Part shown: in pieces, positions 4,206 to 60,405 of the stretch
How the letters are laid out: each line of letters opens with the position of its first letter
Numbering within the stretch: position 1 is the stretch's first letter
Assembly (NCBI GenBank): GCA_000004985.1
Contig: GG738854.1
Reading direction: 5' to 3' (one strand)
DNA length: 64,000 nt
Origin: Naegleria gruberi
Taxonomy: Eukaryota
Position numbers and translations under genes: made by a program
Notes under the pieces: model-generated
What the model was told of the DNA's origin: nothing
Databases searched by the model: none
What the model saw: only the letters and a program-made list of their open reading frames with translations

Positions 4206-7200
4206 ATGGTGCACCAAACTGAGTCGTCACCACTTTCCCATGGTGTTGAATCAGAAAGCTGCCGAAAGTCATCTGCGCATCACGGATTAACAACAAGAAC
4301 TCTTCCTCTCATAACGATCCTTCTATTCATTGGATATTGTTGGGTTTTTGTATCATCTTTAACTTTTTTATGGAATCACTCAACTACTAGTAATTACACA
4401 CGCAATTCGCCCAGTTTCGTCTTCATTGAAGCTGCTAATATTTGTTACACAATTTCAAGTACTGATCCAACCGTTTGCTCTGGTAATGGCACATGTATTG
4501 CTTTGAATACTTGTCAATGTTATCCAGGCTATTCAGGTAAGTTTACTTTCGAATTAACGTTGTGATAATCATTTCGTAGGAAATAAATGTACAACACTAA
4601 TAACATGTAATAACCTTGGAGTTAATGATACACAGGTTTGTTCGGGGCACGGTGTTTGTATCGCCAAAAACAATTGTACATGTACAGATGGATATTCAGG
4701 AGCTAGATGTCAAACCGCCATGCAATGTTATGGAATTGACTTTACCAACACGACCTATGTCTGTAACGGTAATGGTAATTGCACTGCTGCCAACAACTGC
4801 ACCTGTAAAGATGGATTTTCAGGTACCAGATGTCAAACAATCAGACAATGTAGTAACATTGATTTTAATGATCCAACAGTTTGTTCTGGCAAAGGATCTT
4901 GTGTTTCGAATAATAATTGTGAATGTCTAACTGGTTATACAGGTAGTCAATGCCAAAATGTCATGAAATGTTACACAATCCCATTTAATGATCCAAGCGT
5001 TTGTTCTGGAAAAGGTCAATGCATTGCTTCGAATAATTGTTCATGTATTCAAGGATTTTCTGGGACTAAATGTCAGAATGATGATTCTATATTTACGTGT
5101 TTTGGTTTTAACTCGACTAACCCTTTGGTTTGTTCTGGAAATGGAAATTGTACATCGAATGGAAATTGTACATGTAAAGAGGGATTTTCTGGGACTAAAT
5201 GTCAAAATGATGACAGCTACTTTACTTGTTATGATATTGATCCATCAAATACAACCTATGTCTGTAATGGAAATGGAAATTGCACAGCTCAAAATAATTG
5301 CACTTGTAAGGAAGGATATTCAGGAACCAGATGTCAAAACGCCATGCAATGTTATGGAATTGACTTTACCAACACGACCTATGTCTGTAACGGTAATGGT
5401 AATTGCACAGCTGCCAACAACTGCACCTGTAAAGATGGATTTTCAGGTACCAGATGTCAAACTAACAATAATTTAATTACATGTGGTGGACTACTTCCAA
5501 TTGATCCACAAGTTTGTTCTGGAAATGGAAATTGCACTGCCAAAAATAATTGTGATTGCCTTTATGGATACGTTGGTAATCAATGTGCTGATTTACTTCA
5601 ATGCTTTACAATTAATTACAGTGAAAGTTCTGTTTGTTCTGGAAATGGAATTTGCATTGAAAAAAACAACTGCTCCTGCTTTGATGGATATACAGGAAAC
5701 AAATGTCAGACATCAATTCTTCATACATGTTATGGATTAAATGAAACTGATCCACTGATATGCTCTGGAAATGGACAATGTGTTCAGAACAATAATTGCT
5801 CATGTATTTATGGATATAGTGGAAATCAATGTCAAAAAGTGTTGAAATGTCACACCATTACATTCAATGATCCATTGGTATGTTCTGGAAATGGAAATTG
5901 TTCGTTGGATGGAAATTGTACTTGTAAACAAGGTTTCAGTGGTAACAAGTGTCAAAATGATGATTCAGTTTTCTCATGTTACGGTTTTAATTCGACAGAT
6001 CCATTGGTTTGTTCTGGAAATGGTAATTGTACTGCTGACAATCAGTGCAATTGTACAGATGGCTTTAGTGGAAATAAGTGTCAGAATAATGATAATTTAT
6101 TCACATGTAATGGAATTGATTCGAATAATGCAACTGTTTGTAGTGGAAATGGAATTTGTATTTCACAGAATAATTGTTCTTGTTTTTCTGGATTTTCTGG
6201 AAACAGGTGCCAAAAGGATGACAATTTTTTCACTTGTTTTGGTATTGACCTATCAAATTCCACAGTTTGTAATGGAAATGGTATTTGCGTTTCACAAAAC
6301 AATTGCACCTGCTTTAGTGGCTATTCAGGAAACAAATGTCAAAATAATGACATGATTATCAGATGTTACGGAATTGAGTCTACTGATAGCTCAGTATGTT
6401 CTGGTCGTGGTAATTGCACCTTTGATAATACTTGTAAATGCAAAGATGGATTCAGTGGAAGTCAATGTCAAAATGATGATAATATTCTCAAATGTTATGG
6501 AGTTGAGTTCAACAGTCCATTTGTTTGCTCTGGAAATGGAAATTGTTCTTCATTTGGTAATTGCTCATGTTTTGAGGGATTTTCAGGGAAAAAATGTGAA
6601 TTTGATTTGAATTCCAATGAGACAGCATCATCTAATTATACATGTTATGGTATTAATGGTGGATTATCTACTGTTTGTTCAGGAAATGGAAATTGCATTG
6701 CAGATAATGTTTGCGAATGTTTCTATGGATTTGATGGGTCTCAGTGTCAGAAAACACTTCAATGTTATGGAATTGATTACAATAATCCAAGCGTATGTTC
6801 AGGCAATGGTATTTGTAATTCAAGAAACTCTTGTTCATGTTATGAAAATTACGTTGACACCAAATGTCAAACGTACAGAGATCCAAACGCCACCTCATTC
6901 AAATGTTATGGTGTTCAATCGAATGATTCAAGTGTTTGTTCTGGCAGAGGAAACTGCACAGCAGATAATTTCTGTGAATGTCAAACAGGCTTTAAAGGTT
7001 CCAAATGTCAAAATTTGGTCAACTATTGCTTTGGCATTGATGAATATTCCAACAATGTTTGTTCAGGAAATGGAAAATGCACAAGTCAAGATACATGTGA
7101 ATGCTCTTCCAATTATTTTGGAAACGATTGTGGTGTTTACATTCTTCCAGAAACAAGTACAATCAAGATTCTTTCCAAATATTTGTATTTGATTGATAGT

Positions 7201-17296: not shown

Positions 17297-17369
17297 GCCC
17301 CGCTAGCTCAGTCGGTAGAGCGTTGGACTTTTAATCCAACGGTCGTGGGTTCGAGCCCCACGTGGGGCG
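17297..17369 (+). tRNA. tRNA-Lys (anticodon UUU)
   Basis: Acceptor stem GCCCCGC/GTGGGGC (one G-U pair), D-arm GCTCAGTCGGTAGAGC (A box), anticodon loop CT-TTT-AA, T-arm GTGGG-TTCGAGC-CCCAC (B box), discriminator G. 73 nt, no intron. Followed by the run 'gcaattttttttttgc' (Pol III terminator, 17375-17386). Confidence 0.9.
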
Positions 17370-31071: not shown

Positions 31072-34000
31072 ATGGCGGTTGGGTTCCTAGTGTTGTTAAC
31101 AACAATATCTTGCCAAATTCAGTCCGATGATTTTATATCTACTGCTCCATTAGAAATACCAAACCTTCTGCCTTCCACTTCATCATTTGTAACATATGTG
31201 TATTTGATAGATGAGGAGTTATATAAGGAGTGTACCAATATTACCACATCAACAGGTTTGTAATTTAAAGATCAATTATCCTTAGTCTTTTTTCATAGTT
31301 AAAAGGTTTTCGTGTCCGAGTATTTACAAATCCATTATGCATTTGAATAAGGAAGTAGGTGGTGAAATTATGATGAGAGATATAAAGTTAGTTCTCAAAA
31401 TTGGACGAGTAACAAGTTGTGAGGTTGCTCCTCTCATGGTTCAGACTTTCATTACAATAATTATTGAAAATTTAGAAGAGGATTCATACGGAACAATATC
31501 ATGTTCTTCGAGTAGAAATCCATCATCTATTATTCCTGATGAAACTCTCCTCCAATTCGTCATTTTGAAAAACATGAGGATGGAATATGTGGAAATTGGA
31601 CTATCCTTTCCATCAGAGGTTAGAATACGTCATTGTTACTTTATTAATTCAAAAATAAGTATTAGGAAGGATGAAAGAATGATGTTTTATGATACTCTTA
31701 AAGTGGAAATAAGTGGAGTAACTTCTCTGCAGAGTTATTTCACATTTTTTAAAGTGGACAAACTTCATTTGAGTAATGTTGCTATTGTTAAAGGAAAAAC
31801 AGATACATTTTCTGTTACCAAAAATGGATGGGATTTCAAAGGAGTTAAGGATGTTCTTCTTGAGGATTGTGTAATTAAGGATGTATTGAGAGTTTTGGAG
31901 GGAACAAATACAAATATTACAACTTCATCATTTGAGGGAGACTCATCACTCTATATTTCTCAATCTGACAATCTATTTATTTCCCAAACATTATTCTCTG
32001 ATTCTATATTAGAATCCTTACCAATGTTAATTATTACTTTTGTGAAGGTGGTTGACATTTCTGATTGTACTGTTGAAAGATTAGGTTCTCAATGGCTTTA
32101 TGTCTCTTCAACAGTTGATATAATTTTGATGCGTTTAATTGTTAATGATTGCAAATTGAAGGGCAATTTAGTCTATCTCACTTCTACAAACAAGGTTTTT
32201 ATTAAGAACTCTCTTTTTAAAGACATTACTGGAACTGTGGTTAATATGGCAAATATTGTAACTTTGGAGTTGAAAAATTCGACTTTCCATTCGTGCCATA
32301 GTAGAATACACGAATCGATTGTGATACTGAACACTAATGAAGTATTTTCAGCTAGTGCAACTAATGAAAAATCGATTATTTGGGGATCAAGATTTATCAA
32401 GTGTTCAGGGTCCAGGGGAGGAGCAATCTTCTTGAGTTCTTTTTATAAGGTTGATATTAACAGGTGTGAATTCATAGCAAATAGTGCACCAAGTGGGAGT
32501 GCAATATACTCGGATAGTAGAAGGGGAATGATTTATACAGCTACAGGGCTGGAACCTACCATCTCCATCTTTCATTCACTATTTCAAGAGAATGGAGACC
32601 CAACTTTTGGGTCAACATCCTCTGGAGGAGCCATTCACGTTAAGGGAAGCATATATATTGAACAATGTACATTTATTGCCAATTATGCTGTTAAGGGTGG
32701 TGTAATTTATATTGACAAATCAGATTCCACCTTTTACTTTAGTCAATACGAACAAAAGTTAGCAGTATTGGTTGCTAGAAGTGAATTTCAGAATAACACA
32801 GCAAATTTTGGAGAAATTTCCTTCACTGAACTACCTGATCCATCACTAATCTATTTCAAAACCAATATTGTTGTATTTAATCCAACTTCTCTGGGATCAC
32901 CTTGTACCAAGCTAATTATTGATAATACGCAATCTGAACGAGGAAATGTTTACAATGGAACATTAATGGTTTACATGGGAGAGAATGTGAATATAAACAT
33001 GATTGCTTCTAATTTATACGGATACATATTCCCAAAACCATACACAATTATTGGAATTAGGACTCCTGGATCTTCCAAGATATTTGTCAAAACATTAGAT
33101 GATGAAGATCATGTTGAAAATCAAACATTTAACAAATCCTTCTCACTCTATTCACATTATGAAATTTCCTCTCATGAAGATTTGGAGATTTTCATTTCTT
33201 ATGATAAGGTTCATATATCACTCAACTTGATTGTAACACCTTGTCCATTATTCTACAAGTGGGAATCTCCTGTTTGTGTTAATATTTTCTACTTGATTCC
33301 AACTGTTGCTTCAGTCACTTTGTTGACGATAGTTATTGGACTTGTAGCAATTGTTGCTTGTTGTATTGCAAGAAACAAGACAAAGAGATGGAATAGTCGA
33401 AAGAAGGCAGAAAGAATAATGGAACAAGCTCTACTTGATAAAAGAGTTATCTTTGAGGAAGATGAAGAGTCTAGCTCATGTAATTTGAATCGACCTTTCA
33501 TAATCTCAGCAGAAGATATTGTAATTGTAAAGAAAATTGGTGAGGGAGGTGCTGCTAATGTTTTCCTTGCTAAATGGAAAGGTCAAGAAGTTGCCATTAA
33601 AACTCTTAAAGAATGTTTCAGAGGAGACAATGAGGTTTTGGAAACAGAAGCTGCCTTGATTAGTAGTTTCCTTCATCCGAATGTGATTAGATTTTGGGGA
33701 TTTTGTGCCTCATCCTCTCAGAAATACATGGTCATGGAGTATATGAAAGGAGGAAGTTTGGAGAATCTGATTCAGAGTTGTAAAATTGGAAAGGAAAAGT
33801 TGTCCCTCTATGAAAAGCTTCAAATTCTGATTGGGGTAGCTAAAGGAATGGCTTATCTGCATGGCTTGAAACCATGTTGTGTTCACCGTGACTTGAAACC
33901 TGGAAATATTCTGTTGGATGAAAATCGAATCAGTAAGGTTGGAGATTTTGGTTTATCCAGACTCATTTCAAATACCTATCAGACCAGTTTTACAACGAAT

Positions 34001-34615
34001 GTGGGTACTTTATTCTATATGGCACCAGAAAACTTTTCTGATAATACCTTCTCTGAAGATTCATTGGGAATGTCTGGTTTTTCACACACAACCTACCAAA
34101 CTACAAATATGACCAACAATACTCATCATTCCATCCAATCATACTATTCAGAGACAGAGTCAGCAGTAGATCAATCGGCAACTATACAAGAATCAGAGAC
34201 CTCTGAGAAGAAACTATTGAATGCTTCAAAGGTTGATGTTTACAGTTATGCAGTGATTATGTGGTCACTCTTCTTTGAGGAAAGTCCTTATGGAAACTAC
34301 AATACTAAGAAGATGAACTTTTTTGGAGATAGTAATGATAACTTTACTAATTGTTACACTGTTTTACCATTGATTCTTCAAGGTAAGAGACCTACAGTAC
34401 CATTTAATTCTGTTGAGAAGATGAAGAGATGGCTTGATGTGTTTGTACTCCCAAAAGAATTAGGAAAGGACAGAGAACATTTATCTAAAATTGTTTTTAG
34501 ATATCTCAACATGATGAAGCTGTGTTGGCATCCACAGCCAGAAGAGCGTCCACCATTTGATCAAATAGTTCCAGAACTGGAAGATTTAGCTGAGCAACTC
34601 CAATACAATAATTGA
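31072..34615 (+). CDS. receptor-like protein kinase: signal peptide, beta-helix ectodomain with Pmp-like 'GGAI' repeats, TM, TKL-type kinase domain; 2 exons
   Basis: Exon 1 is 31072..31255 (ATG in 'aataATGgcg', signal peptide 'MAVGFLVLLTTISCQIQS'). The intron is 31256..31298 (GTTTGT..TTTTTCATAG, 43 nt, phase 1). Exon 2 is 31299..34615, in frame with the 1092-aa track ORF. Ectodomain repeats: 'GGAIFLSSF', 'SGSAIYSDS', 'GGAIHVKGSIYIEQCTFIANYAVKGGVIYID'. TM 'IPTVASVTLLTIVIGLVAIVACCIA'. Kinase motifs: 'IGEGGAANVFLAKWKGQEVAIKTLK', 'HRDLKPGNILL', 'DFGLSR', 'YMAPE'. Confidence 0.65.
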
Positions 34616-34764
34616 CAACTCAATTGAAATTCCTCCACATTCTCTCCAAGGATCGTTTTTCAATAGCATACGGAACTTCAAGAACTCCTCTCAAAATCTT
34701 TAAAATATCAAGACCCATACTGTAATGAACATAAGTTAACAATAAACTATTGATATTGCACAAC

Positions 34765-35765
34765 TTACAATATTCCAATAATTCCTGCAATTTGGCCTAA
34801 AAGACCTTCCATCGTTGAAGTAACCATTTCAGTAATTACATTAACATTCAATGTTGAATAAGCAACTGAAATTACCACTTCATCTCCATCGAATTGAGTT
34901 AATTCCACGATGGATAACTGAGGATGCCATCTCACTGAATTAATTCCTCCTTCGGTATTTGGTTTTAGTCTATTTGTGATAACCTTTGTCAAGATGAAAT
35001 AATTGTCCACTCCAGAAATTGCATAATTGGTCTCTGCAAATACATTAGGTACTGTTCCAGTTTCGTGAAAAGAAACTTGCAAACCAAATCTTGAATCTCT
35101 ATTTTCAGGAACAAAAGGGACATGAAAATAGAATGAAATAGTTCCTGCATATCCAATATCAGTAGCTTAAATTGTGAATGAGATTTTTCCTTGCTCGTTA
35201 ATCACTTACCATTCAAAAGTGATTGGCTCACATTATTGAATACATAACAATTGAACAATTGACCATTCTGAAAAAGCACAACTCTATCATAATGAGGATC
35301 CAAATTTTCCACAATTCCCAATGTAGAATTCACTTTCGTTGCAAACTTTAACGTTAAATTACAATAATCACAATCCAACATTGCATTCCAGTTACAAACA
35401 GTAATAGCTGGAAACGGTAAAGGAACTGACTCGATAAATGTTGTGGCTGTTGTTGGATTACTAATACTCTGCACAAATTGTTCGGAAGAGTCAACAATAT
35501 ACCATATACACATTGCTGTTGCTATGAACCACCCAATGCATGTTATTGCTCTGCTCACCTTAGTGTACATCCATGTTTTCTTCTTCTTTTTCCTCCGTTC
35601 TTGAAGTGTTTGCTGTATTTGCTGAATTTGCCTCACTTGTTCCATTCTGATTTCGGAATCCTGCACTCCATCATCACACACAGGACCTACTTGAACCTGA
35701 ATCCCAGACAACGTCTCGAACGTTGTAGAATTGGAACATTTCTCCTCCTCATTGTTTGTTGCCAT
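34765..35765 (-). CDS. two-TM membrane protein with an ENaC/degenerin-like post-TM1 'FPAITVC' motif (tentative family), 2 exons; paralog 1 of a tandem pair
   Basis: Exon 1 is 35765..35210 (ATG at 35765). The intron is 35209..35166 (GTAAGT..TTTAAG, 44 nt, phase 1). Exon 2 is 35165..34765; about 318 aa. Cytoplasmic N-tail with a K-run, TM1 'AITCIGWFIATAMCIWYIV', then 'SVPLPFPAITVCNWNAMLDCDYCN' (compare ENaC 'FPAVTIC'), a Cys-containing ectodomain and a C-terminal hydrophobic segment 'EGLLGQIAGIIGIL'. Confidence 0.55.
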
Positions 35766-36030
35766 TTTTTTTATTAAGGTTTTTGCATTTCCTTTAGCAG
35801 CTTTTTTAGTAGGTTTGGAAAGTTCATTGTCGGAATTGGTTATTGATTCAATAGTGATTGCAAGATGCTATTTTCTTATATTTGACTTGAAAGATTTGGT
35901 TGATATCTATTTCAATATTTGAGATGGTTAATTAAAGTTATCCCAAACTCTTCGTATTGACCGATGTTTCACAGAATAGGGAATTACAAGAATTCCTCTT
36001 AGAAATTTCAATACATCCAATCCCATACTA

Positions 36031-36847
36031 TCAACAAGCAAAAATTACAAAGCCAACTCTTAATAATAAACTTACAAAATTCCAACCATGCCAGCAATTT
36101 GCCCTAACAACCTTCAACGAAGTTGTGTAAATTTCTGAAATTTGTCTCAAATTCATAGAAGCATAAGCTACCGAAATAACAATGATATCATCATGTGTAT
36201 CGGTGAGTTCTATAAAGGACAATACTGATTCCCAACGAACCGAATGTAAGCCATCTTCTTTCGTTGGTTTCAATCTTGTGGTTAACACTTTTGTAACAGA
36301 AAAGAAATTGTCTACATTTGGAATGGCAAAGTTTGTCTCTGAAAAAACATTTGGCACAGTTCCAATCTCATGAAATGAAATTTGCAGACCGAATCTTCCA
36401 TCCAAACTCTGGGGCACGAGAGGGAGCTTAAAGTAGAATGTTAAAGTTCCAGAATATCCAACATCCTTTGCTGTTTCGAATGAGAATTATCCGCATAAAT
36501 TCAAATACGAACCTTCAACAGGATTCATCGACCTATTATTAAATACTAAACATTGAAATGGCTGTTCGTGCTGAACTACCACCTTACTATCATATTCCAT
36601 TGTGTAATTCTCCACAAAACCAGTTTCACTATTCACTCTCGTCAAGTGTTCCAAAGAAAGGGAGCAAAACTCACAATCATGCAAAGCATTCCAATTACAA
36701 ACAGTCATTGCAGGATAATATAAAGGAACCGAATCAACATAGGATGTTGCTGTGGTCGGATTTTCAAGTGCCGAGATGAAATTCGTTATTATATGAATAG
36801 GCAATATAAAATCCACAAACTCCCATCGCCACAATCCATCCAGCCAT
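36031..36847 (-). pseudogene. paralog 2 of the ENaC-like two-TM gene, disrupted by a 1-nt frameshift just after TM1
   Basis: Same two-exon structure (intron 36512..36471, GTTCGT..AAACAG, 42 nt). TM1 'MAGWIVAMGVCGFYIAYSYNNEF' reads in one frame and hits TGA; 'ISALENPTTATSYVDSVPLYYPAMTVCNWNALHDCEFC' continues in the adjacent frame, with an extra C at 'gaattt-c-atctcg' near 36777-36782. Further upstream (36949..37224) is a third frame with a His-rich tract, so the N-terminus is also unclear. Confidence 0.45.
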
Positions 36848-37340
36848 TGTGATTAATTCTCCAAAGTGAGGCAATCTGATACTCCAGTTTTTCCTTAATT
36901 GTGTCCATTTACTTTTATTAAGGGTGCCCTGCAAATTGGTATTATTTCCTATTGTCTGATGATTAAGTTGATGATGATGATTATTATTGAATAATTTTCG
37001 TGATGATGAAGATGACGACCATGATGATGATGATTGATGATGTGATGAGGTGCCTTCTTTGGCGACCTTCCAACCTCTATATAAACACTATCTGAACTGA
37101 GAATCGACTTGTCTCTTCTTGGAAACGAAGTGTGCATTTTTTTGAGTGTTGTTAAGGGAAGTTTGAATACGGATTTGGAGTTCCATAGCCATAACTGAAA
37201 CATTGTTGTAGAAAGAAAATTCATTTCTTGGGTTATGATATATTGGTGAAGATGAATTGGAGGGTTGCTGCTTATTCCAGATGTCTACAACCAGCACACT
37301 ATGGAAAGAATATAAAAGAATAATTTTTTAAATATGCGAA

Positions 37341-37425
37341 GCTCATATAGCTCAGTGGTAGAGCATTTGTCTTATGAGAACTTAAGGTTAGCAGATGGCC
37401 GAGGGTTCGACCCCCTCTATGAGCA
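37341..37425 (+). tRNA. tRNA-Ile (anticodon UAU) with 13-nt intron
   Basis: Acceptor GCTCATA/TATGAGC, D-arm GCTCAGTGGTAGAGC, anticodon stem TTTGT/GCAGA (two G-U pairs), loop CT-TAT-G[intron AGAACTTAAGGTT at 37377-37389]A, variable TGGCC, T-arm GAGGG-TTCGACC-CCCTC, discriminator A. Eukaryotic tRNA-Ile(UAU) characteristically carries an intron. Followed by 'aattttttgc'. Confidence 0.8.
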
Positions 37426-37781: not shown

Positions 37782-37866
37782 TGCTCATAGAGGGGGTCGA
37801 ACCCTCGGCCATCTGCTAACCTTAAGTTCTCATAAGACAAATGCTCTACCACTGAGCTATATGAGC
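37782..37866 (-). tRNA. tRNA-Ile (anticodon UAU) with 13-nt intron, inverted duplicate
   Basis: Exact reverse complement of the 37341-37425 copy, convergent (tail-to-tail) with it. Confidence 0.8.
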
Positions 37867-43712: not shown

Positions 43713-44028
43713 TTCTTCTTTTCAAAAAACTATTTAGCAATCTTTTTCATATTAAATCGCTATTGCCTTTTTATGAGATATCAACAAGCAGTCTATTTAT
43801 TACTTGATTTTGTAAAGTTTTTTCTTTTCCTATCATCTTTCTGCTCAAAAAAAATCCACTTTAACTCTTGTTAATTCCATTGGTGAGTAGTGTCGATAGA
43901 TCTGTAAGCGTTTTGGCTCATTAACCTTTTCGTGAGTATCCCCGCCTTAGTTACAATCGCTTTTCCATCGAACCAGTAATCTCCAGTCTGCACTTGAAGA
44001 ACCAAAGTCACGTTGATCTCAAAAAAAA

Positions 44029-46281
44029 ATGTTTAGTAACTGCCATCATCATGATGATGCTGAACGTGTAGTAATTATATTGGACGATCATGACAAATTT
44101 ATGGAACAATTATTGAATAGCAAATATAAACAAGAACGAAATTTATCATGCTACAAACAAATATTAAAATATTTAACTAATACGAGAGGTTTAATATTAA
44201 AGTATTATGAATTACCTGTTATATTACGAAGAGATCGGAGATTCATCACTGAAATTGCACAAACTTTTGAATTTTACCAACAATTACCTGAAGAATTTAA
44301 ATCCGATAAACAAGTAATGCTAAATTGTTTTAAAAAGAAAGTATTTAATGGAAGTGATATTAAGAGTGGATATATTCCCTCTAATTTAATGAATGATAGG
44401 AAATTTATATTGGAATTAATTGAAGGAAATCCAACATGTCTCTATTTAGTACCGAAAGAAAGAGAATTCGTGTTGGCAGCAATGAAACACGATATTATAT
44501 ATTTGGGATTTCTCCCAGGAAGTGAAAAGAAGAATGAATCATACATGTGGGAATTGTTTTTGAAAAATTGGGAAAATTTAAGATTTGCAAGTGGTGAATT
44601 ACTAAATAATCCATCATTTGCTATAAAAGTAAGAAAGCATGATACCAATACTTTCAACTATTATTGTGGACGGCCACATTTGGCGGTTCATGCAAGGGAT
44701 AAATTTCGAAATAATAGAGAATATGTGCTTTTTGCTATTTTACATGGAAAAGCTGATTTTACAATGATAAAAAAGGTATTTCAAGCGGATTTGGAAATTA
44801 AAATGGCAAATAATATTAAAACTGATGCCTCCTTATGGAAATTAAAGGAAGAATGGGCAAATGACAAGGAAATGATTTTGAAATATGTCAAACATAATTC
44901 AAATATATTGAAATTTATTAATTTGGAATTACTACAGGATTATGAATTTAATATTAAATTAATTTACAAAAATATTGAAAGTATTCAATTTATTAATGAA
45001 TGCAATACTAATTTTAAACAATTATTTACACAATCAGATAAAACTGAATTAATTTCTAGATATTTAAGCAACAAAAAATTTAACATTAATTCCAAAATTA
45101 TAAATCCAACTAATATTAGAGCATTTGGTTCCAAAATTAATTATATACATTTTATAGAGGAATATTTAAATGAAAACGATTTAATTTATATAACAAGTAA
45201 TATTGATGGACAAGCATGTTACGGTTTGTTAAACGTAATTTCCAATAAGAAAATTTTCAATGAATGCTTACAATTATGGAAAATAACAGTTAAAAAGCAT
45301 TATTCATGTTATGAATTATTTAATATAAAATATACCAAACAAGATATTATTGAGATAATTTCATCCATGCATGAATCTCCTTTTCCATTCCTGGCACACA
45401 TTGATAGAAATGTATTTAGCTCTGAGAGTGAAGTTCTTCTCATTGCAATTCAAACCCATTTCAAGTGCTTTGAATTGGCAAGTAAAGAACTGAAATCTGA
45501 CTTGAATTTTATTAGAAAGTCAGTCAATTTAAATAGAAATATTATTAAAGTAATAGATTTGCAAATTGTACAAGATAATTTGGATTTATTGATTATTTAT
45601 ATAAATTATAAATTAAAAATCAATACCATGTATGGATATCAAAATAGCGCTCATGCATTAAATCCATTAATTAACATATTAGCAAAACATTTACAAAATG
45701 AGGATACAGTTTTACAATTAGTAGAAATACCCCAATTTGTAAATTTATTTTATGGCCATATAGATATTAATTTAAGATCAAGTGAGGAATTCTGTTTAAA
45801 AATATTAAAAACAGATTTGAATAATGCCACTAAAATTCCAAATTTAATTAAATATAGAAATTTCATAATTGAATTTCTAAAAGAGGGAAAATCCATTACA
45901 TTCATTCCTAAAATATTCGAACAGGATGAGGAATTTTTACATTTATTTTTTAAAAACTGGAATCGTACGGAATACCTTCCAATATTACCAGCGGATGAAA
46001 TTTTTATTGGTATTCTAATTAAGGAATTGAAAATTAACCCATCCATATATAGAAATTTTAATAATAGTGATCCGTTGAAACATAATTGGGATATATTATT
46101 GAATGTTGCCAGAGATGTAAATAGCTGTTTAGTTTTTCCCACCACAATATGGCAAGATGAGAATTTTAAATTGGAACTTGTGAAGAGAGGAATTTTTCCA
46201 CCTTCCTTTTTGAAACATTTTAATAGCATTTTGAACGATATGGATTTGATTGTAGAAAATGGTTTTTACTTGATTCAATAA
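44029..46281 (+). CDS. DUF4116 repeat-containing protein
   Basis: 750-aa ATG ORF after an A9 run. At least 8 tandem ~30-aa repeats of the DUF4116 type ('D/N-+-E/Q-hydrophobic-hydrophobic-L-x-hydrophobic-hydrophobic-K-x-N'): 'DKQVMLNCFKKKVFNGSDI', 'DRKFILELIEGNPTCLYLV', 'EREFVLAAMKHDIIYLGF', 'NPSFAIKVRKHDTNTFNYY', 'NREYVLFAILHGKADFTMI', 'DKEMILKYVKHNSNILKFI', 'DYEFNIKLIYKNIESIQFI'. Confidence 0.55.
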   Translation: MFSNCHHHDDAERVVIILDDHDKFMEQLLNSKYKQERNLSCYKQILKYLTNTRGLILKYYELPVILRRDRRFITEIAQTFEFYQQLPEEFKSDKQVMLNCFKKKVFNGSDIKSGYIPSNLMNDRKFILELIEGNPTCLYLVPKEREFVLAAMKHDIIYLGFLPGSEKKNESYMWELFLKNWENLRFASGELLNNPSFAIKVRKHDTNTFNYYCGRPHLAVHARDKFRNNREYVLFAILHGKADFTMIKKVFQADLEIKMANNIKTDASLWKLKEEWANDKEMILKYVKHNSNILKFINLELLQDYEFNIKLIYKNIESIQFINECNTNFKQLFTQSDKTELISRYLSNKKFNINSKIINPTNIRAFGSKINYIHFIEEYLNENDLIYITSNIDGQACYGLLNVISNKKIFNECLQLWKITVKKHYSCYELFNIKYTKQDIIEIISSMHESPFPFLAHIDRNVFSSESEVLLIAIQTHFKCFELASKELKSDLNFIRKSVNLNRNIIKVIDLQIVQDNLDLLIIYINYKLKINTMYGYQNSAHALNPLINILAKHLQNEDTVLQLVEIPQFVNLFYGHIDINLRSSEEFCLKILKTDLNNATKIPNLIKYRNFIIEFLKEGKSITFIPKIFEQDEEFLHLFFKNWNRTEYLPILPADEIFIGILIKELKINPSIYRNFNNSDPLKHNWDILLNVARDVNSCLVFPTTIWQDENFKLELVKRGIFPPSFLKHFNSILNDMDLIVENGFYLIQ

Positions 46282-49503: not shown

Positions 49504-52500
49504 ATGTATCGAATGGGTTTATTTGAATGCCTTCAGTTGTTGATTGTTTGTTGTTTGACATTGGCAATGATAAGTTGTTCTAATGCCCAGACCAGATCAG
49601 TTGATTACAAAATAACAACACTTGCTGGAGGATTGTATGGAGAAGGAGTGAGAGCAACAAATGTTGGTATTAATGGACCGTTTGGTGTTTATTCATCATC
49701 TCTTTCTGGTGGGAACGTTTATTACACAGATGTTTCATATGGGCAAGTGAGATTTGTTGATTCGAATGGAATTTCACATCTTGTTGCTGGCTCACCAACT
49801 TATCATACAGGAACAGCCACAGATAGCTTGACTTTTGCAAATGATACCTTGAACATGCCACACAGTATTTCGTTCAATTCGAATGGAGAGATGTTTATTG
49901 CAGAGTACAACGCAACAAGGATTAGAAAGGTTTATTACAATTCAACTATTGGAGATTACAGTATGATTACTGTTGCTGGAGGTGGTTCTTCTCTTAGCAG
50001 TAACATTTCAGCTCTCAATGCCAAGTTCTCTCAACCTCGATGTGTTGTTGTTTCGCCAAATAATGAAGTTTACATTTGTGATACAGGTAATTACATGATC
50101 AGAAAGATTGTGAATGGTGTTGTGTATAATATTGTTGGAAATGGACAGCAGGGATCAAGTACTGATGGCACTCTTGCTGTCAATGCCAAAGTTTCTCTGG
50201 TATTGAGTGTTGCCTTTCATCCAGTGAGTGGTGAATTGTTCTTTTCTGATTATTCCAATAATGCAATCAAGTATGTCATGAATAATGGCAGCATTTTCAC
50301 ATATGCAACATCTAGTGGCCCTTATGGAATTGCTTTCGACTCGAGTGGCGATAATTTATATGTGGCAGAGTATGGATCTAACAAGATTGTTAAATTCACT
50401 AATGGTGTTAGATCTGTAATTGTCAATACTTTGGGCACAAAAAGTTTCAGTGGAGATGGTGGTAGTTCTTTGAGTGCAACCATCAATCTTCCTGCTGGTA
50501 TTGCACTGAATGGAAATAATCTCTACTTTGCTGATACTGCCAACAATCGTATTAGAGTGGTCAATTTACAAACCAGTATTGTGAATACTATTGCAGGTGA
50601 TGGAACTGCAAGATTCCTTGGAGCTTACTCTGGATCAAGATCAGATGTTTCATTATTTAGACCAGAGACAACATTTTACAATTCACAGACTGATGAGTTG
50701 CTGGTGGCCGACACCCTCAATCATCGCGTAGTTAGAATCAACTCACTGACAAATATCAATACATCCCCAATTGAATCTATTGCTGGTTATACTGGTATTG
50801 CTAGCAATGATGTTGCAGGCAAGTTGGGAAATCAAACCTATCTCAATTATCCATACTCTGTAGCTCAATCAGAAACTAGTGGTGATGTCTATTTTGGAAC
50901 CACTAATTTTGTTTACAAATGGGGAAAGAAAGATCAAAAGATTACACTCATTGCTGGATCGAGTAGTACATTGGCAGGCGATAATTATCTTGCTGTTGGT
51001 TCACAATTATATCAACCAGCTGGTATGGCCTTTGCTTCAAATGGAGATTTATATTTTTGTGATTCTAATAATCATGCTATTAGAAAGATTGATACTCAAG
51101 GTGTGATTACAACACTAACTGGAAATGGAACAGCAGGATTCCAAGATGGTGATGCTGCAAGTGCACTTTTCAATAGTCCAGCTAGTATTGCCTTATTACC
51201 AAATGGCGATTTTCTAGTTGCTGATTTTACCAATTCTAGAATTAGAAAATATGTTGCCAGTACCAAACAAGTTGTTACTATTGCTGGTAATTCAACTCTT
51301 GGTTTCTATGGAGATAATGGACTGGCTTCAAAGGCACTTCTAAACAAACCTACAGGTGTTTTCTATAATTCCACATCAGGTGATATTTTGATTGCTGATT
51401 ATTTCAATTTCAGAATTAGAAAAATTTCCAATAATACAGGAATTATTACAACCATTGCTGGATCTGGTTCAACCAGCTACAATGGAGATGGATTGGCAGC
51501 AACATCTACAAGTATGGCTCCATACGGATTGGCAGTAAATCCAATTAGTGGGGAGCTGTTCTTTACTGATAATGCCAACTTTCTTGTTAGAAGAATTGAT
51601 GCCAGCTCTAAGGTTCACACAGTAATTGGTGTTGCTAAAAGTACAATTTTCAATGTAACCAGTTTGGCCAATTCAACTGGTTTATCTTCAATTTCGTTCT
51701 TGACATTTTCACCAAGTGGTGATCTTTATGTTTCTTGCTTTGGACAACATGTCATCAAAAAGATGAGTTATGGTAGCGATATTGTTTATAATGTAGCTGG
51801 TACAGGAAATACAGATTTGAATGGAGATGGATTGGAAGCAACATTGACCAATCTTTATCAACCAATTGCTGTAGCTTACTCTCCTACTTCCAGTGAATTA
51901 TACTTTTCTGATTATTTACATGATAGAGTGAGAAAAATAACCTCTTCAGGATTGGTTGAAACAGTTGCAGGAGGTTTAGGTGATAAGGGATTGGCTGTTA
52001 ATGCAAAAATCAGAGGTGTTTCATCAATATTACTGGTAGACAATGATTTATATATCTCTGATGCATTCAATTATAGAATTCGTAAAATTTCCCTCTCAAC
52101 TGGTATTATTGATTCCATTGTTGGAGCATCATATGCATCTATTTACAATGGAGATAACTTGGCCAATCAAACCAATATTAACTATGTATGGGATCTGAGA
52201 ATTCAAAACGGTGAACTTGTATTTGCTGACATGAACAATAACTTAATTAGGAAAACAAGTTTATCTGGTAAAGGAAAGGTAACAACCATTGCTGGTATGG
52301 GTACAAACAATGCTTCGATTATTATCGATAATGTCAAGGCAACAAGTGCCTATTTGAAAAACCCTGGTTCTGTTGCATTCTTACCAACTGGTGATATGAT
52401 TATTGCAGAGACAGAAGGTCATATCATTAGAAAGGTTGATTTGAATGGCAATATTTCACTCATTGCTGGATCATTCTTCCAACCAGGTTTCAATGGTGAC

Positions 52501-53535
52501 TTGTCAGATTCAAAGAATTCTTTATTGTATCAACCAACAGGACTTTCTATTTTACAGGATGGTAGAATCATCTTCTCAGACTTTGGAAACAATAGAGTGA
52601 GAATGTTAACACCATATTGTAAGGATGAAAAGTATTATTTGACTCAATCTTCACAAGGTATTGTCTGCAACATTACTTCATGTTATGGACTCGCCTACAA
52701 TGATGCAAAAGTTTGTTCAGGAAATGGAATTTGTTCATCATTGAATAACTGCAGCTGCTCAAGTGGATATTCTGGAAACGATTGCTCAACTGCTGATATT
52801 TGTTCTGTCTTGTCAAGCTCATATGTTTGTACAACAACGTCTCTCAACACAACTGAAACTCAAGTTACAACAGTTCAAAATGTCACTCAATTGGATTCGA
52901 AAACTATCGAGTTCTCATCTACAAGTACTGTCACTGTTTCACTGCCATCAACAATTTCACAATACTTGACAAGTGTTGATTCAACATTGAAGAATGACAC
53001 TGTTACTGTTGTCAGTTCTGTTTCATCAGCAAGCAAAGTAACAGAAACTTCTGAGGTTATTTCACCAGTCATCTCAATTGTTCTTGTCAAGTCAAGTTCT
53101 AATCAAAAAATTTCTGTCCAAAATCTCGAAGAACCAATTTCATTATATTTCAATAAGGTCAACATGACTGTTTCGAATATTGAAACCTTGAATGTAACTT
53201 GTATGTATTATGATGAAAGTGAAAAGGTATGGAAATCGGATGGGGTTGAAAGTGAAATTACAGAGATTATTCTCCACAACCTTGCTGATGGAAATGTTAC
53301 CTTGACAATTTCACTTACATGCAAGACTTTCCATTTAACTTCATTTGGAATCATTGATCAAAACTACAAGAAGGCAACTACTAACTCTAATACTGACGAT
53401 TCCACAATCTTGACAGATTACACAGTTTTAATAGGTGCCATTGTTGGTGGTGTTGGTGGATGTTGTGTTATTGCCACAATTATTACACTCATCATTGTTG
53501 TCATTATCTTTGTAAGAAGAAGAGGAAAGAAATAA
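49504..53535 (+). CDS. secreted/single-pass protein with NHL-type beta-propeller repeats, EGF-like module, GPS motif and C-terminal TM (teneurin- or PKD-REJ-like architecture)
   Basis: 1343 aa. Signal peptide 'MYRMGLFECLQLLIVCCLTLAMISCSNAQT'. More than 15 NHL-like repeats ('LYVAEYGSNKIVKF', 'LYFADTANNRIRVV', 'LYFCDSNNHAIRKID', 'FLVADFTNSRIRKY', 'ILIADYFNFRIRKI', 'LYISDAFNYRIRKI'). EGF module 'CYGLAYNDAKVCSGNGICSSLNNCSCSSGYSGNDC', Ser/Thr-rich stalk, GPS 'CMYYDESEKVWKSDGVE...LTISLTCKTFHLTSFGII' (about 53198-53350), TM 'LIGAIVGGVGGCCVIATIITLIIVVIIFV', and a short basic tail RRRGKK. Confidence 0.7.
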   Translation: MYRMGLFECLQLLIVCCLTLAMISCSNAQTRSVDYKITTLAGGLYGEGVRATNVGINGPFGVYSSSLSGGNVYYTDVSYGQVRFVDSNGISHLVAGSPTYHTGTATDSLTFANDTLNMPHSISFNSNGEMFIAEYNATRIRKVYYNSTIGDYSMITVAGGGSSLSSNISALNAKFSQPRCVVVSPNNEVYICDTGNYMIRKIVNGVVYNIVGNGQQGSSTDGTLAVNAKVSLVLSVAFHPVSGELFFSDYSNNAIKYVMNNGSIFTYATSSGPYGIAFDSSGDNLYVAEYGSNKIVKFTNGVRSVIVNTLGTKSFSGDGGSSLSATINLPAGIALNGNNLYFADTANNRIRVVNLQTSIVNTIAGDGTARFLGAYSGSRSDVSLFRPETTFYNSQTDELLVADTLNHRVVRINSLTNINTSPIESIAGYTGIASNDVAGKLGNQTYLNYPYSVAQSETSGDVYFGTTNFVYKWGKKDQKITLIAGSSSTLAGDNYLAVGSQLYQPAGMAFASNGDLYFCDSNNHAIRKIDTQGVITTLTGNGTAGFQDGDAASALFNSPASIALLPNGDFLVADFTNSRIRKYVASTKQVVTIAGNSTLGFYGDNGLASKALLNKPTGVFYNSTSGDILIADYFNFRIRKISNNTGIITTIAGSGSTSYNGDGLAATSTSMAPYGLAVNPISGELFFTDNANFLVRRIDASSKVHTVIGVAKSTIFNVTSLANSTGLSSISFLTFSPSGDLYVSCFGQHVIKKMSYGSDIVYNVAGTGNTDLNGDGLEATLTNLYQPIAVAYSPTSSELYFSDYLHDRVRKITSSGLVETVAGGLGDKGLAVNAKIRGVSSILLVDNDLYISDAFNYRIRKISLSTGIIDSIVGASYASIYNGDNLANQTNINYVWDLRIQNGELVFADMNNNLIRKTSLSGKGKVTTIAGMGTNNASIIIDNVKATSAYLKNPGSVAFLPTGDMIIAETEGHIIRKVDLNGNISLIAGSFFQPGFNGDLSDSKNSLLYQPTGLSILQDGRIIFSDFGNNRVRMLTPYCKDEKYYLTQSSQGIVCNITSCYGLAYNDAKVCSGNGICSSLNNCSCSSGYSGNDCSTADICSVLSSSYVCTTTSLNTTETQVTTVQNVTQLDSKTIEFSSTSTVTVSLPSTISQYLTSVDSTLKNDTVTVVSSVSSASKVTETSEVISPVISIVLVKSSSNQKISVQNLEEPISLYFNKVNMTVSNIETLNVTCMYYDESEKVWKSDGVESEITEIILHNLADGNVTLTISLTCKTFHLTSFGIIDQNYKKATTNSNTDDSTILTDYTVLIGAIVGGVGGCCVIATIITLIIVVIIFVRRRGKK

Positions 53536-60332: not shown

Positions 60333-60405
60333 CGCCCCACGTGGGGCTCGAACCCACGACCGTTGGATTAAAAGTCCAACGCTCTACCGACTGAGCTAGC
60401 GGGGC
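60333..60405 (-). tRNA. tRNA-Lys (anticodon UUU), second copy
   Basis: Exact reverse complement of the 17297-17369 gene. It shares the immediate flanks 'gagca|tRNA|gttgcaatttt' and is followed by T-runs on the minus strand. Confidence 0.9.

What the first reader, a model, noticed from the sequence alone, without database searches (positions are those of the whole stretch)
34765..36900. Tandem pair of small ENaC-like two-TM genes, one apparently inactivated by a 1-nt frameshift
Two adjacent minus-strand genes share the same 2-exon structure (42- and 44-nt introns at the same codon) and about 50 % identity. Both carry 'FPA(I/M)TVCNWNA' shortly after TM1, reminiscent of the ENaC/degenerin post-M1 'FPAVTIC' motif, and both have a C-terminal hydrophobic segment. 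In the downstream copy the TM1 reading frame runs into TGA while the conserved ectodomain continues in the neighbouring frame (extra C near 36777-36782). The N-terminus of that copy is also in a third frame with a His-rich tract. This is either a young pseudogene after tandem duplication, or sequencing errors in homopolymeric or low-complexity DNA. The family assignment is tentative; the proteins are much shorter than canonical ENaCs.
Basis: partly seen in the sequence, partly recalled or inferred. Interest (0 to 1): 0.5.

Follow-up and report, generated by a model that had tools for sequence, protein, structure and literature searches.

The report
Naegleria mini-ENaC gene pair, one dead
Two neighbouring genes of the amoeba Naegleria gruberi encode unusually small relatives of animal ENaC/ASIC ion channels; one is intact, the other is a decayed copy with at least two frameshifts, and the public gene model wrongly fuses them.

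Summary

Gene B (about 36928..35928) is A's tandem sister: 52 % identity, and both short introns sit at the same codons. Its homology runs through three reading frames. No ATG lies in the TM1 frame upstream of TM1.

B is most likely a recently inactivated, unprocessed pseudogene of an old duplicate (dS above 1, dN/dS about 0.25, each frame segment still open). The database protein (492 aa) is a chimera of B's ectodomain and A.

The family differs from canonical DEG/ENaC. It has an all-beta ectodomain of about 200 aa, no HG motif, and G-[L/I]-D-x-L-K where animals have G/S-x-S. N. gruberi has at least seven such loci. Interest is modest: an annotation fix plus an uncharacterised compact channel subfamily.

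The parts
35210..35765 (-). Gene A exon 1: ATG at 35765, N-terminal cytoplasmic tail, TM1 (aa 73-91), post-TM1 motif FPAITVCNWN, first half of the ectodomain.
   Evidence: ORF and splice search. Pfam ASC best stretch is aa 72-131. Hydropathy maximum lies at aa 73-91.
35166..35209 (-). Gene A intron 1: 44 nt, GTAAGT...TTTAAG, phase 1.
   Evidence: This is the only GT-AG pair that gives an open frame. The exon junction matches the intronless orthologs P0002 and P0003.
34769..35165 (-). Gene A exon 2: second half of the ectodomain and the first part of TM2 (LLGQIAGIIGI).
34720..34768 (-). Gene A intron 2: 49 nt, GTAAGT...TTACAG, phase 2, inside TM2.
   Evidence: The same position is interrupted in N. 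lovaniensis P0004 and in metagenome loci L004 and L006.
34620..34719 (-). Gene A exon 3: FMGLDILKILRGVLEVPYAIEKRSLERMWRNFN plus the stop codon TGA (34622..34620).
   Evidence: The C-terminus is conserved in all full-length relatives.
36949..37224 (-). Possible N-terminal ORF of gene B (ATG at 37224 or 37136, His-rich). It is in a different frame from TM1, and its link to the rest of B is unresolved.
   Evidence: Three-frame translation. 36 hypothetical GT-AG joins exist, none with a consensus donor.
36779..36928 (-). Gene B TM1-frame segment (GTLNKSKW...ITMAGWIVAMGVCGFYIAYSYNNEF). This frame ends at TGA 36766..36764.
36778..36778 (-). Lesion 1 of gene B: a surplus base (C) that shifts the frame between TM1 and the ectodomain.
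   Evidence: The alignment with relatives shows B has one codon plus one nt too many here.
36513..36777 (-). Gene B ectodomain, first part (ISALENPTTATSYVDSVPLYYPAMTVCNWNA...NPVE).
36471..36512 (-). Gene B intron 1: 42 nt, GTTCGT...AAACAG, phase 1, at the same codon as A's intron 1.
   Evidence: The public model P0001 uses the same junction.
36115..36470 (-). Gene B ectodomain, second part (AKDVGYSGTL...EIYTTSL).
36111..36114 (-). Lesion 2 of gene B: AAGG where A and all relatives have six bases (Glu-Gly). The net loss is 2 nt, a second frameshift.
36076..36110 (-). Gene B first part of TM2 (LLGQIAGMVGI), in a third frame.
36028..36075 (-). Gene B intron 2: 48 nt, GTAAGT...TGATAG, at the same position as A's intron 2.
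35928..36027 (-). Gene B exon 3 (FMGLDVLKFLRGILVIPYSVKHRSIRRVWDNFN) plus the stop codon TAA (35930..35928).

Best explanation
Gene A encodes an intact subunit of a compact channel of the DEG/ENaC/ASIC superfamily. It has two transmembrane helices around an all-beta ectodomain of about 200 residues (palm plus beta-ball, no helical thumb, finger or knuckle).

By analogy with solved relatives, it probably assembles as a trimer whose TM2 lines the pore. The constriction would be formed by the family-specific G-L-D motif, with a conserved Lys one turn below. This is inferred, not shown. The gating stimulus and ion selectivity are unknown.

Gene B is A's tandem sister. It arose by an old duplication in the N. 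gruberi lineage and stayed under purifying selection for most of its history. It was recently disabled by at least two small indels (+1 nt at 36778, -2 nt at 36114..36111). It is an unprocessed pseudogene that keeps both introns. The public 492-aa protein model is an artefact that splices B's ectodomain onto A.
For: Organism and the chimeric model. P0001, 'predicted protein [Naegleria gruberi]', is 100 % identical to A over 84 % of A. Its sequence runs from B's MTVCNWNA... through the frameshifted read KVVRANCWHGWNFV into A's QVGPVCDDG, and ends at GIIGIL without exon 3.

Gene A model. Only one GT-AG solution is open for each intron. The product aligns end to end with 348-384-aa proteins of N. 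lovaniensis and N. fowleri and of a Logan assembly of a sequencing run; two of these genes are intronless.

Family.
- Pfam ASC scores are 45.8 bits (A) and 43.3 bits (B), against a cut-off of 23.6.
- The family profile hits ASIC1 at E = 1.1e-5, aligning FPAxTxCN and the beta12-TM2 segment LLGxIxGxxGxxxG.
- The model of P0002 has pLDDT 75-89 over residues 75-310.

Gene B lesions. Homology to A lies in three frames.

History.
- A and B are sisters with 92 % bootstrap.
- dN 0.36-0.40, dS 1.3-1.6, ratio about 0.25.
- B keeps 55 of 63 family-invariant columns, A keeps 60 of 63.
- B's branch is longer, with B-unique versus A-unique changes of 44:19 to 33:25 depending on the outgroup.
Against: - No reads, ESTs or RNA-seq were available. 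Errors in the assembly, or a null allele on one haplotype of a heterozygous strain, are not excluded.
- The openness of all three B segments and the low dN/dS would also fit an intact gene that was mis-sequenced.
- Channel function, trimer formation and selectivity are inferred from homology only.
- The selectivity-filter Ser and the HG gating motif of animal channels are absent, so the pore may work differently.
Confidence: 0.78

Rival explanations
1. Gene B is intact in the organism. The frameshifts are sequencing or assembly errors, so N. gruberi has two functional tandem paralogs here.
For: - Each of B's three segments (50, 206 and 44 codons) is free of stop codons in a 35 % GC genome, where about 7 % of random codons would be stops.
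- dN/dS between A and B is about 0.25.
- B retains 55 of 63 invariant residues, and its changes are conservative.
Against: - At least two separate indel events would be needed: +1 nt at 36778, and -2 nt at 36114..36111, which may itself be two 1-nt losses.
- Neither lies in a long homopolymer.
- The TM1 frame has no ATG upstream of TM1.
- The intron-1 donor is GTTCGT, whereas the other three donors are GTAAGT.
- From my own knowledge, the reference assembly is multi-fold Sanger coverage, for which three indel errors in 1 kb would be unusual.
Confidence: 0.1
2. The lesions are real but allele-specific. The assembled haplotype carries a null allele of B, and another haplotype of this heterozygous strain keeps an intact copy.
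For: - The inactivation looks very recent: open segments and conserved residues.
- From my own knowledge, the N. gruberi NEG-M genome paper reported heterozygosity.
Against: - No second haplotype of this locus was found. The only other N. gruberi sequence close to A (P0012, 71 %) is a different paralog.
- There is no direct evidence either way.
Confidence: 0.08
3. The proteins are members of the PAC/TMEM206 (proton-activated chloride channel) family rather than DEG/ENaC.
For: - The size is the same, about 350 aa.
- The top Foldseek hit is a PAC/ASOR chain, 8h8d_C at 1.2e-11.
- The profile-to-PDB-sequence E-value for PAC is marginal, 0.08-0.9.
- A conserved Lys sits in the lower part of TM2.
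Against: - No Pfam family other than ASC appears even at E <= 10.
- The ASC score is well above its cut-off.
- The DEG/ENaC sequence signatures FPAxTxCN and LLGxxxGxxGxxxG are present.
Confidence: 0.04
4. The annotated 492-aa fusion (B ectodomain spliced to A) is the true product.
For: It is the deposited gene model. A GT-AG join from B's intron-2 donor to an AG inside A's exon 1 exists in the sequence.
Against: - The fusion starts after TM1, so it has no membrane anchor or signal.
- It contains the non-conserved frameshifted peptide KVVRANCWHGWNFV.
- It omits the exon 3 that is conserved in all relatives.
- Every full-length homolog is a single-domain protein. Those returned by the homolog searches are 348-463 aa, and most single-stretch representatives that span nearly the whole profile are about 300-400 aa.
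Confidence: 0.02

Closest known systems
DEG/ENaC/ASIC superfamily (Pfam PF00858 ASC; solved examples ASIC1 6ave, ENaC 6wth/6bqn, FaNaC 7yvb)
   Same: - Two-TM topology.
- Post-TM1 motif FPAxT(I/V)CN.
- Beta12-TM2 glycine pattern LLGxIxGxxGxxxG, including the Gly at the 'degenerin' position.
- Pfam score above the cut-off.
   Different: - The ectodomain is about 200 aa and all-beta. The model has only one 4-residue helix, so the helical thumb, finger and knuckle are missing.
- Only four family-conserved Cys in the ectodomain.
- The selectivity-filter position reads G-[L/I]-D instead of G/S-x-S, followed by a conserved Lys.
- There is no HG motif before TM1.
- The host is a heterolobosean amoeba, outside animals.
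PAC / TMEM206 / ASOR proton-activated chloride channel (7jna, 7sqg, 8h8d)
   Different: - Sequence relationship is only marginal (E = 0.08 or worse).
- No Pfam hit to a PAC family.
- Structural identity is lower (9-10 %) than to ASIC and ENaC.
- The DEG/ENaC signature motifs are present here.
Non-metazoan Deg/ENaC homologs reported from heterokonts (Cafeteria) and Tunicaraptor (PMC10507113; PMC9822975)
   Same: They are DEG/ENaC-related genes outside animals with a patchy distribution.
   Different: - Those papers' BLAST survey with animal queries included Discoba but reported candidates only in holozoans, one alveolate and one stramenopile (PMC10507113).
- The heterolobosean family here is a separate, compact group.
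- From my own memory, not verified here, Studer et al. 2011 (Physiol Genomics 43:844) had already noted an ENaC-like gene in N. gruberi.
Unprocessed (duplicative) pseudogenes next to their functional paralog
   Same: Tandem position, retained introns at the same codons, and a reading frame broken by small indels.
   Different: The duplicate is old and was long constrained (dN/dS about 0.25). There are no stop codons yet within the frame segments, so the decay is very recent, or an artefact.

Membership tests
DEG/ENaC/ASIC (Pfam PF00858 ASC) | Profile-HMM score above the curated gathering cut-off. | tested here: met
   A scores 45.8 bits (E = 6e-12) and repaired B 43.3 bits; the cut-off is 23.6. 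Orthologs score 35-55 bits.
DEG/ENaC/ASIC (Pfam PF00858 ASC) | Two transmembrane helices flanking a large extracellular loop. | tested here: met
   Hydropathy maxima lie at aa 73-91 and 306-331 of A. The ortholog model has helices 78-110 and 314-341 around a beta-rich domain. The orientation of the termini was not testable.
DEG/ENaC/ASIC (Pfam PF00858 ASC) | Post-TM1 motif FPAVT(I/L)CN. | tested here: met
   A has FPAITVCN and B has YPAMTVCN. The motif aligns to ASIC1 FPAVTLCN. In 54 family sequences (gene A plus 53 representatives), P is present in 53, C in 54 and N in 50.
DEG/ENaC/ASIC (Pfam PF00858 ASC) | G/S-x-S selectivity-filter motif in TM2. | tested here: not met
   The position that aligns with ASIC1 G-A-S reads G-L-D in A and B. 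Family-wide it is G 46/46, D 38/46, followed by K 39/46 three residues later.
DEG/ENaC/ASIC (Pfam PF00858 ASC) | Conserved His-Gly (HG) gating motif before TM1. | tested here: not met
   It is absent in A and B. It occurs in 1 of 43 family members, and there only within a low-complexity tract.
DEG/ENaC/ASIC (Pfam PF00858 ASC) | ASIC-type ectodomain fold (palm and beta-ball). | tested here: met
DEG/ENaC/ASIC (Pfam PF00858 ASC) | Helical thumb, finger and knuckle subdomains, and a cysteine-rich ectodomain of about 350 aa or more. | tested here: not met
   The ectodomain is about 200 aa. DSSP shows only strands plus one 4-residue helix. There are four invariant Cys.
DEG/ENaC/ASIC (Pfam PF00858 ASC) | Trimeric assembly and an amiloride-sensitive cation conductance. 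| not testable with these tools
   Needs expression, electrophysiology or an experimental structure.
PAC / TMEM206 | Significant sequence similarity to PAC proteins. | tested here: not met
   The best profile E-value against PAC chains is 0.08. There is no Pfam hit other than ASC at E <= 10.
PAC / TMEM206 | PAC-like compact fold and size. | tested here: met
Unprocessed pseudogene (gene B) | Reading frame disrupted relative to intact paralog and orthologs. | tested here: met
   Homology is spread over three frames, with lesions at 36778 and 36114..36111.
Unprocessed pseudogene (gene B) | Retains the parental intron-exon structure and genomic (tandem) context. | tested here: met
   Introns of 42 and 48 nt sit at the same codons as A's 44 and 49 nt. 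B's stop codon is 162 bp from A's ATG.
Unprocessed pseudogene (gene B) | Relaxed selective constraint. | tested here: inconclusive
   dN/dS between A and B is about 0.25, with saturated dS. B's branch is longer; the relative-rate chi-square is 1.1-9.9 depending on the outgroup. There are no internal stop codons.
Unprocessed pseudogene (gene B) | The lesions are real in the organism, and no full-length product is made. | not testable with these tools
   No reads or expression data are available.

The most novel reading that the evidence does not exclude
The heterolobosean proteins would represent a distinct minimal branch of the trimeric two-TM channel fold, intermediate in size and architecture between PAC/TMEM206 and animal DEG/ENaC. 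They would have their own pore chemistry (G-x-D plus Lys in TM2, no HG motif).

This would imply that the palm/beta-ball core is the ancestral module. The thumb, finger and knuckle of animal channels would then be later additions. The family is sizeable: at least 7 loci in N. gruberi and 286 cluster representatives at E <= 1e-3. It was overlooked in recent surveys of non-metazoan DEG/ENaC.
Probability: 0.25. Interest if true: 0.6.

Novelty: new variant of a known kind. Interest (0 to 1): 0.38.

Why it matters
1. It corrects a public gene model. The N. gruberi 'predicted protein' of 492 aa is a chimera of a pseudogene fragment and a real 350-aa gene, and it lacks that gene's conserved last exon. 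Anyone using that entry for DEG/ENaC phylogeny gets a misleading sequence.

2. It shows that Naegleria and Willaertia carry a multigene family of compact DEG/ENaC-like proteins. They have a PAC-sized, all-beta ectodomain and a different motif at the selectivity-filter position. Recent surveys held in the library report non-animal DEG/ENaC only in heterokonts and a filasterean relative. This family is therefore a useful extra data point for the origin of the fold, and a small, tractable target for structure-function work, including in the pathogen N. fowleri (P0005).

The pseudogene itself is ordinary gene-family turnover.

Tried and rejected
The structure was therefore predicted for ortholog P0002.
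- The neighbouring kinase ORF is not on record as an exact protein.
- I looked for conserved gene order between the window and the loci of P0002, P0003 and P0004. None was found beyond the ASC gene itself.
- I searched for a closer, intact ortholog of B with the repaired B protein and in JGI metagenome contigs. None was found.
- I looked for an intron that would join B's ATG ORF to the TM1 frame. There are 36 GT-AG possibilities, none with a consensus donor, so this stays undecided.
- An intron cannot rescue lesion 1 or lesion 2, because the conserved residues are contiguous on both sides.
- The bacterial promoter/terminator scan is irrelevant for a eukaryote.
- Literature: no held paper describes a Naegleria DEG/ENaC. 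Studer et al. 2011 and Hanukoglu 2016 are not held, so prior mention of an N. gruberi ENaC-like gene rests on my memory only.
Full report
**Source and setting**

The window is AT-rich (about 34 % GC) and eukaryotic. A protein search with the spliced product of the downstream gene returned 'predicted protein [Naegleria gruberi]' at 100 % identity, on a 665-kb scaffold. Relatives came from N. lovaniensis, N. fowleri and Willaertia magna. The window is therefore N. gruberi nuclear DNA.

**Gene A**

On the minus strand an ATG at 35765 opens a 187-codon ORF. Only one GT-AG pair keeps the frame open at each of two places.
- Intron 1 is 35209..35166: 44 nt, GTAAGT..AAG, phase 1.
- Intron 2 is 34768..34720: 49 nt, GTAAGT..CAG, phase 2.

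The resulting exons are 35765..35210, 35165..34769 and 34719..34620, with stop TGA at 34622..34620. They encode 350 aa.

The model is validated by relatives. Proteins of 348-384 aa from other Naegleria align from before TM1 to the very C-terminus (...W-x-N-F-N). Two of those genes, P0002 and P0003, are intronless.

**Gene B**

tblastn of protein A against 37300..35900 finds homology in three different frames.
- TM1: 30 % identity over 47 aa.
- The ectodomain: 52 % identity over 223 aa, E = 4e-85.
- TM2 and the C-terminus: 46 % identity over 59 alignment columns, 16 of which are a gap spanning the intron.

fixes the anatomy.
- TM1-frame segment: 36928..36779.
- One surplus base: C at 36778.
- Ectodomain, first part: 36777..36513.
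- Intron 1: 36512..36471 (42 nt, GTTCGT..CAG, same codon and phase as in A).
- Ectodomain, second part: 36470..36115.
- Four bases, AAGG (36114..36111), where A and every relative have six (Glu-Gly).
- First part of TM2: 36110..36076.
- Intron 2: 36075..36028 (48 nt).
- Last exon: 36027..35928, with stop TAA.

B therefore carries at least two frame-breaking lesions, not one. Neither sits in a long homopolymer. Between TM1 and the NPTT motif B has one codon plus one base more than all relatives.

The TM1 frame has no ATG between the upstream stop (about 37090) and TM1. The His-rich ATG ORF (37224/37136..36949) is in the ectodomain's frame. It might be linked to TM1 by a further lesion or by an unrecognised intron. 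36 GT-AG joins are formally possible, none with a consensus donor, so I leave this open. An intron cannot repair lesions 1 or 2, because conserved residues abut on both sides.

**The public gene model**

P0001 (492 aa) begins at B's internal Met (MTVCNWNA...). It follows B's ectodomain, reads the frameshifted peptide KVVRANCWHGWNFV, then jumps into A at QVGPVCDDG, and stops at GIIGIL without exon 3. It is a chimera of a pseudogene fragment and a truncated real gene.

**History of the pair**

In a neighbour-joining tree of 226 shared columns, A and B are sisters with 92 % bootstrap, and B has the longer branch.

With C-terminal fragments added, a metagenome sequence (P0016, 68.5 % identical to A) groups with A to the exclusion of B. 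Support is weak (64 %). This hints that the duplication predates that species split.

Codon comparison gives dN 0.36-0.40 and dS 1.3-1.6, a ratio of about 0.25. Identity is 70 % at codon positions 1+2 and 44 % at position 3.

B keeps 55 of 63 columns that are invariant in the other full-length members, against 60 of 63 for A. Its departures are conservative. B-unique changes outnumber A-unique ones, from 44:19 to 33:25 depending on the outgroup.

None of B's three segments (50, 206 and 44 codons) contains a stop, although about 7 % of random codons at this composition would be stops.

Together this means an old duplicate that was constrained for most of its life and was disabled only recently. 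Alternatively it is not disabled at all and was mis-sequenced. I favour a real pseudogene, for three reasons. Two or three independent indels would have to be errors. The intron-1 donor has drifted from GTAAGT to GTTCGT. The TM1 frame has no in-frame start. Without reads I keep about 10 % on sequencing error and about 8 % on an allele-specific null.

**Family assignment**

- Pfam PF00858 (ASC, amiloride-sensitive sodium channel) is the only family hit for A even at E <= 10. The score is 45.8 bits against a cut-off of 23.6.
- Repaired B scores 43.3 bits, and six relatives score 35-55 bits.
- A profile of nine family members hits ASIC1 and ASIC2 chains in the PDB at about 1e-5. The alignment covers FPAxTxCN after TM1 and the beta12-TM2 stretch LLGxIxGxxGxxxG. 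PAC/TMEM206 chains appear only at E = 0.08-0.9.
- The structure tool refuses spliced window sequences, so I modelled ortholog P0002 (47-49 % identical to A) with 16 family sequences. pLDDT is 75-89 over residues 75-310, and the tails are disordered.
- Foldseek against the PDB gives PAC/ASOR (1.2e-11) and ASIC1 (1.7e-11) neck and neck.

The proteins therefore belong to the DEG/ENaC branch of the ASIC/PAC fold.

**How it differs from canonical DEG/ENaC**

- The ectodomain is only about 200 residues. In the model it is all strands, with a single 4-residue helix. The helical thumb, finger and knuckle of ASIC and ENaC are missing, and what remains is the palm/beta-ball core.
- Only four Cys are invariant.
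- In an alignment of gene A with 53 diverged representatives, the position that aligns with the animal G/S-x-S filter reads G (46/46), L/I, D (38/46). A Lys follows three residues later (39/46).
- The HG motif before TM1 is absent.

Two textbook signatures of the animal family are therefore not met, while the profile, the fold and the post-TM1 motif are. I file it as a variant, not a standard member.

What it conducts and what gates it cannot be inferred. A trimeric pore lined by TM2 is the most likely mechanism by homology, but it is an inference.

**Size and spread of the family**

An exhaustive profile search of 1.84 billion cluster representatives gives 286 proteins at E <= 1e-3 and 52 at E <= 1e-30. 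The best hits are mostly single-stretch matches of about 300-400 aa that span most of the profile (a few longer models and many fragments are mixed in). Longer proteins (450-740 aa) that match only the TM1 and TM2 ends, presumably canonical DEG/ENaC, appear from about 1e-11 downwards.

Named members are all Naegleria or Willaertia. N. gruberi alone has at least seven loci:
- A and B;
- P0010;
- P0012;
- the adjacent pair NAEGRDRAFT_64420 and 64421, on the same scaffold but outside this window;
- the C-terminus of a 1563-aa model.

A second tandem pair lies on a metagenome contig (L007). Tandem duplication and loss is therefore the normal dynamics of this family.

**Literature**

Papers held in the library state that DEG/ENaC outside animals are known from heterokonts and Tunicaraptor. 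A BLAST survey that included Discoba found candidates only in holozoans, one alveolate and one stramenopile (PMC10507113; PMC9822975). One study reported no DEG/ENaC homologs in any of the pathogenic protozoan genomes it examined (PMC3681921).

From memory, Studer et al. 2011 (Physiol Genomics 43:844) reported an ENaC-like gene in N. gruberi. The paper is not held, so I could not check it. The Pfam assignment of the N. gruberi entry is precomputed in the databases, so the bare family assignment is not new.

**Verdict**

The pseudogene is ordinary. The mis-fused public model and the compact, motif-divergent channel subfamily give the finding modest value.

Noticed in passing
window 31337..34615 (+) and 34620..34622 (-): A 1092-aa intronless ORF on the plus strand has a right-handed beta-helix region, a TM segment and a protein-kinase domain (PK_Tyr_Ser-Thr, E = 1.6e-48). 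It ends only 4 bp from gene A's stop codon on the opposite strand. The 3' UTRs of the two convergent genes must therefore overlap each other's coding sequence.
   Followed up: partly
window 37341..37425 (+) and 37782..37866 (-): Two 100 % identical 85-nt tRNA genes lie in convergent orientation just upstream of gene B (Rfam tRNA, 61.4 bits each). ARAGORN could not name the anticodon. By my reading they are tRNA-Ile(UAU) with an intron of about 13 nt.
   Followed up: partly
window 17297..17369 (+) and 60333..60405 (-): Two tRNA-Lys(UUU) genes lie on opposite strands, 43 kb apart.
   Followed up: no
window 4428..7125 and 49714..52809: The N-terminal repeat regions of a 1563-aa N. gruberi model (P0023, whose C-terminus is another ASC-like domain) match these two stretches of the window at 25-42 % identity. 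The matches are many and overlapping, which indicates repeat-rich surface-protein-like genes.
   Followed up: no
window 44001..46000: GC content drops to 0.258, against about 0.34 elsewhere.
   Followed up: no
N. gruberi loci outside the window (P0019/P0030 = NAEGRDRAFT_64420/64421; P0010; P0012; P0023): N. gruberi has at least five further ASC-like loci. They include a second pair with adjacent locus tags on the same 665-kb scaffold. Several public models look mis-built: P0010 lacks part of TM1, and P0023 is a 1563-aa fusion.
   Followed up: partly
L007 3674..4786 and 5079..6147: A JGI metagenome contig from another heterolobosean-like organism carries two ASC-like genes (P0011, P0006) in tandem, in the same orientation. 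Tandem pairs therefore recur in this family.
   Followed up: partly
L002 8001..9294 (N. lovaniensis P0004 gene): This ortholog has three introns. The last one sits at the same TM2 position as intron 2 of A and B, so that intron predates the split between N. gruberi and N. lovaniensis. P0002 and P0003 are intronless.
   Followed up: partly
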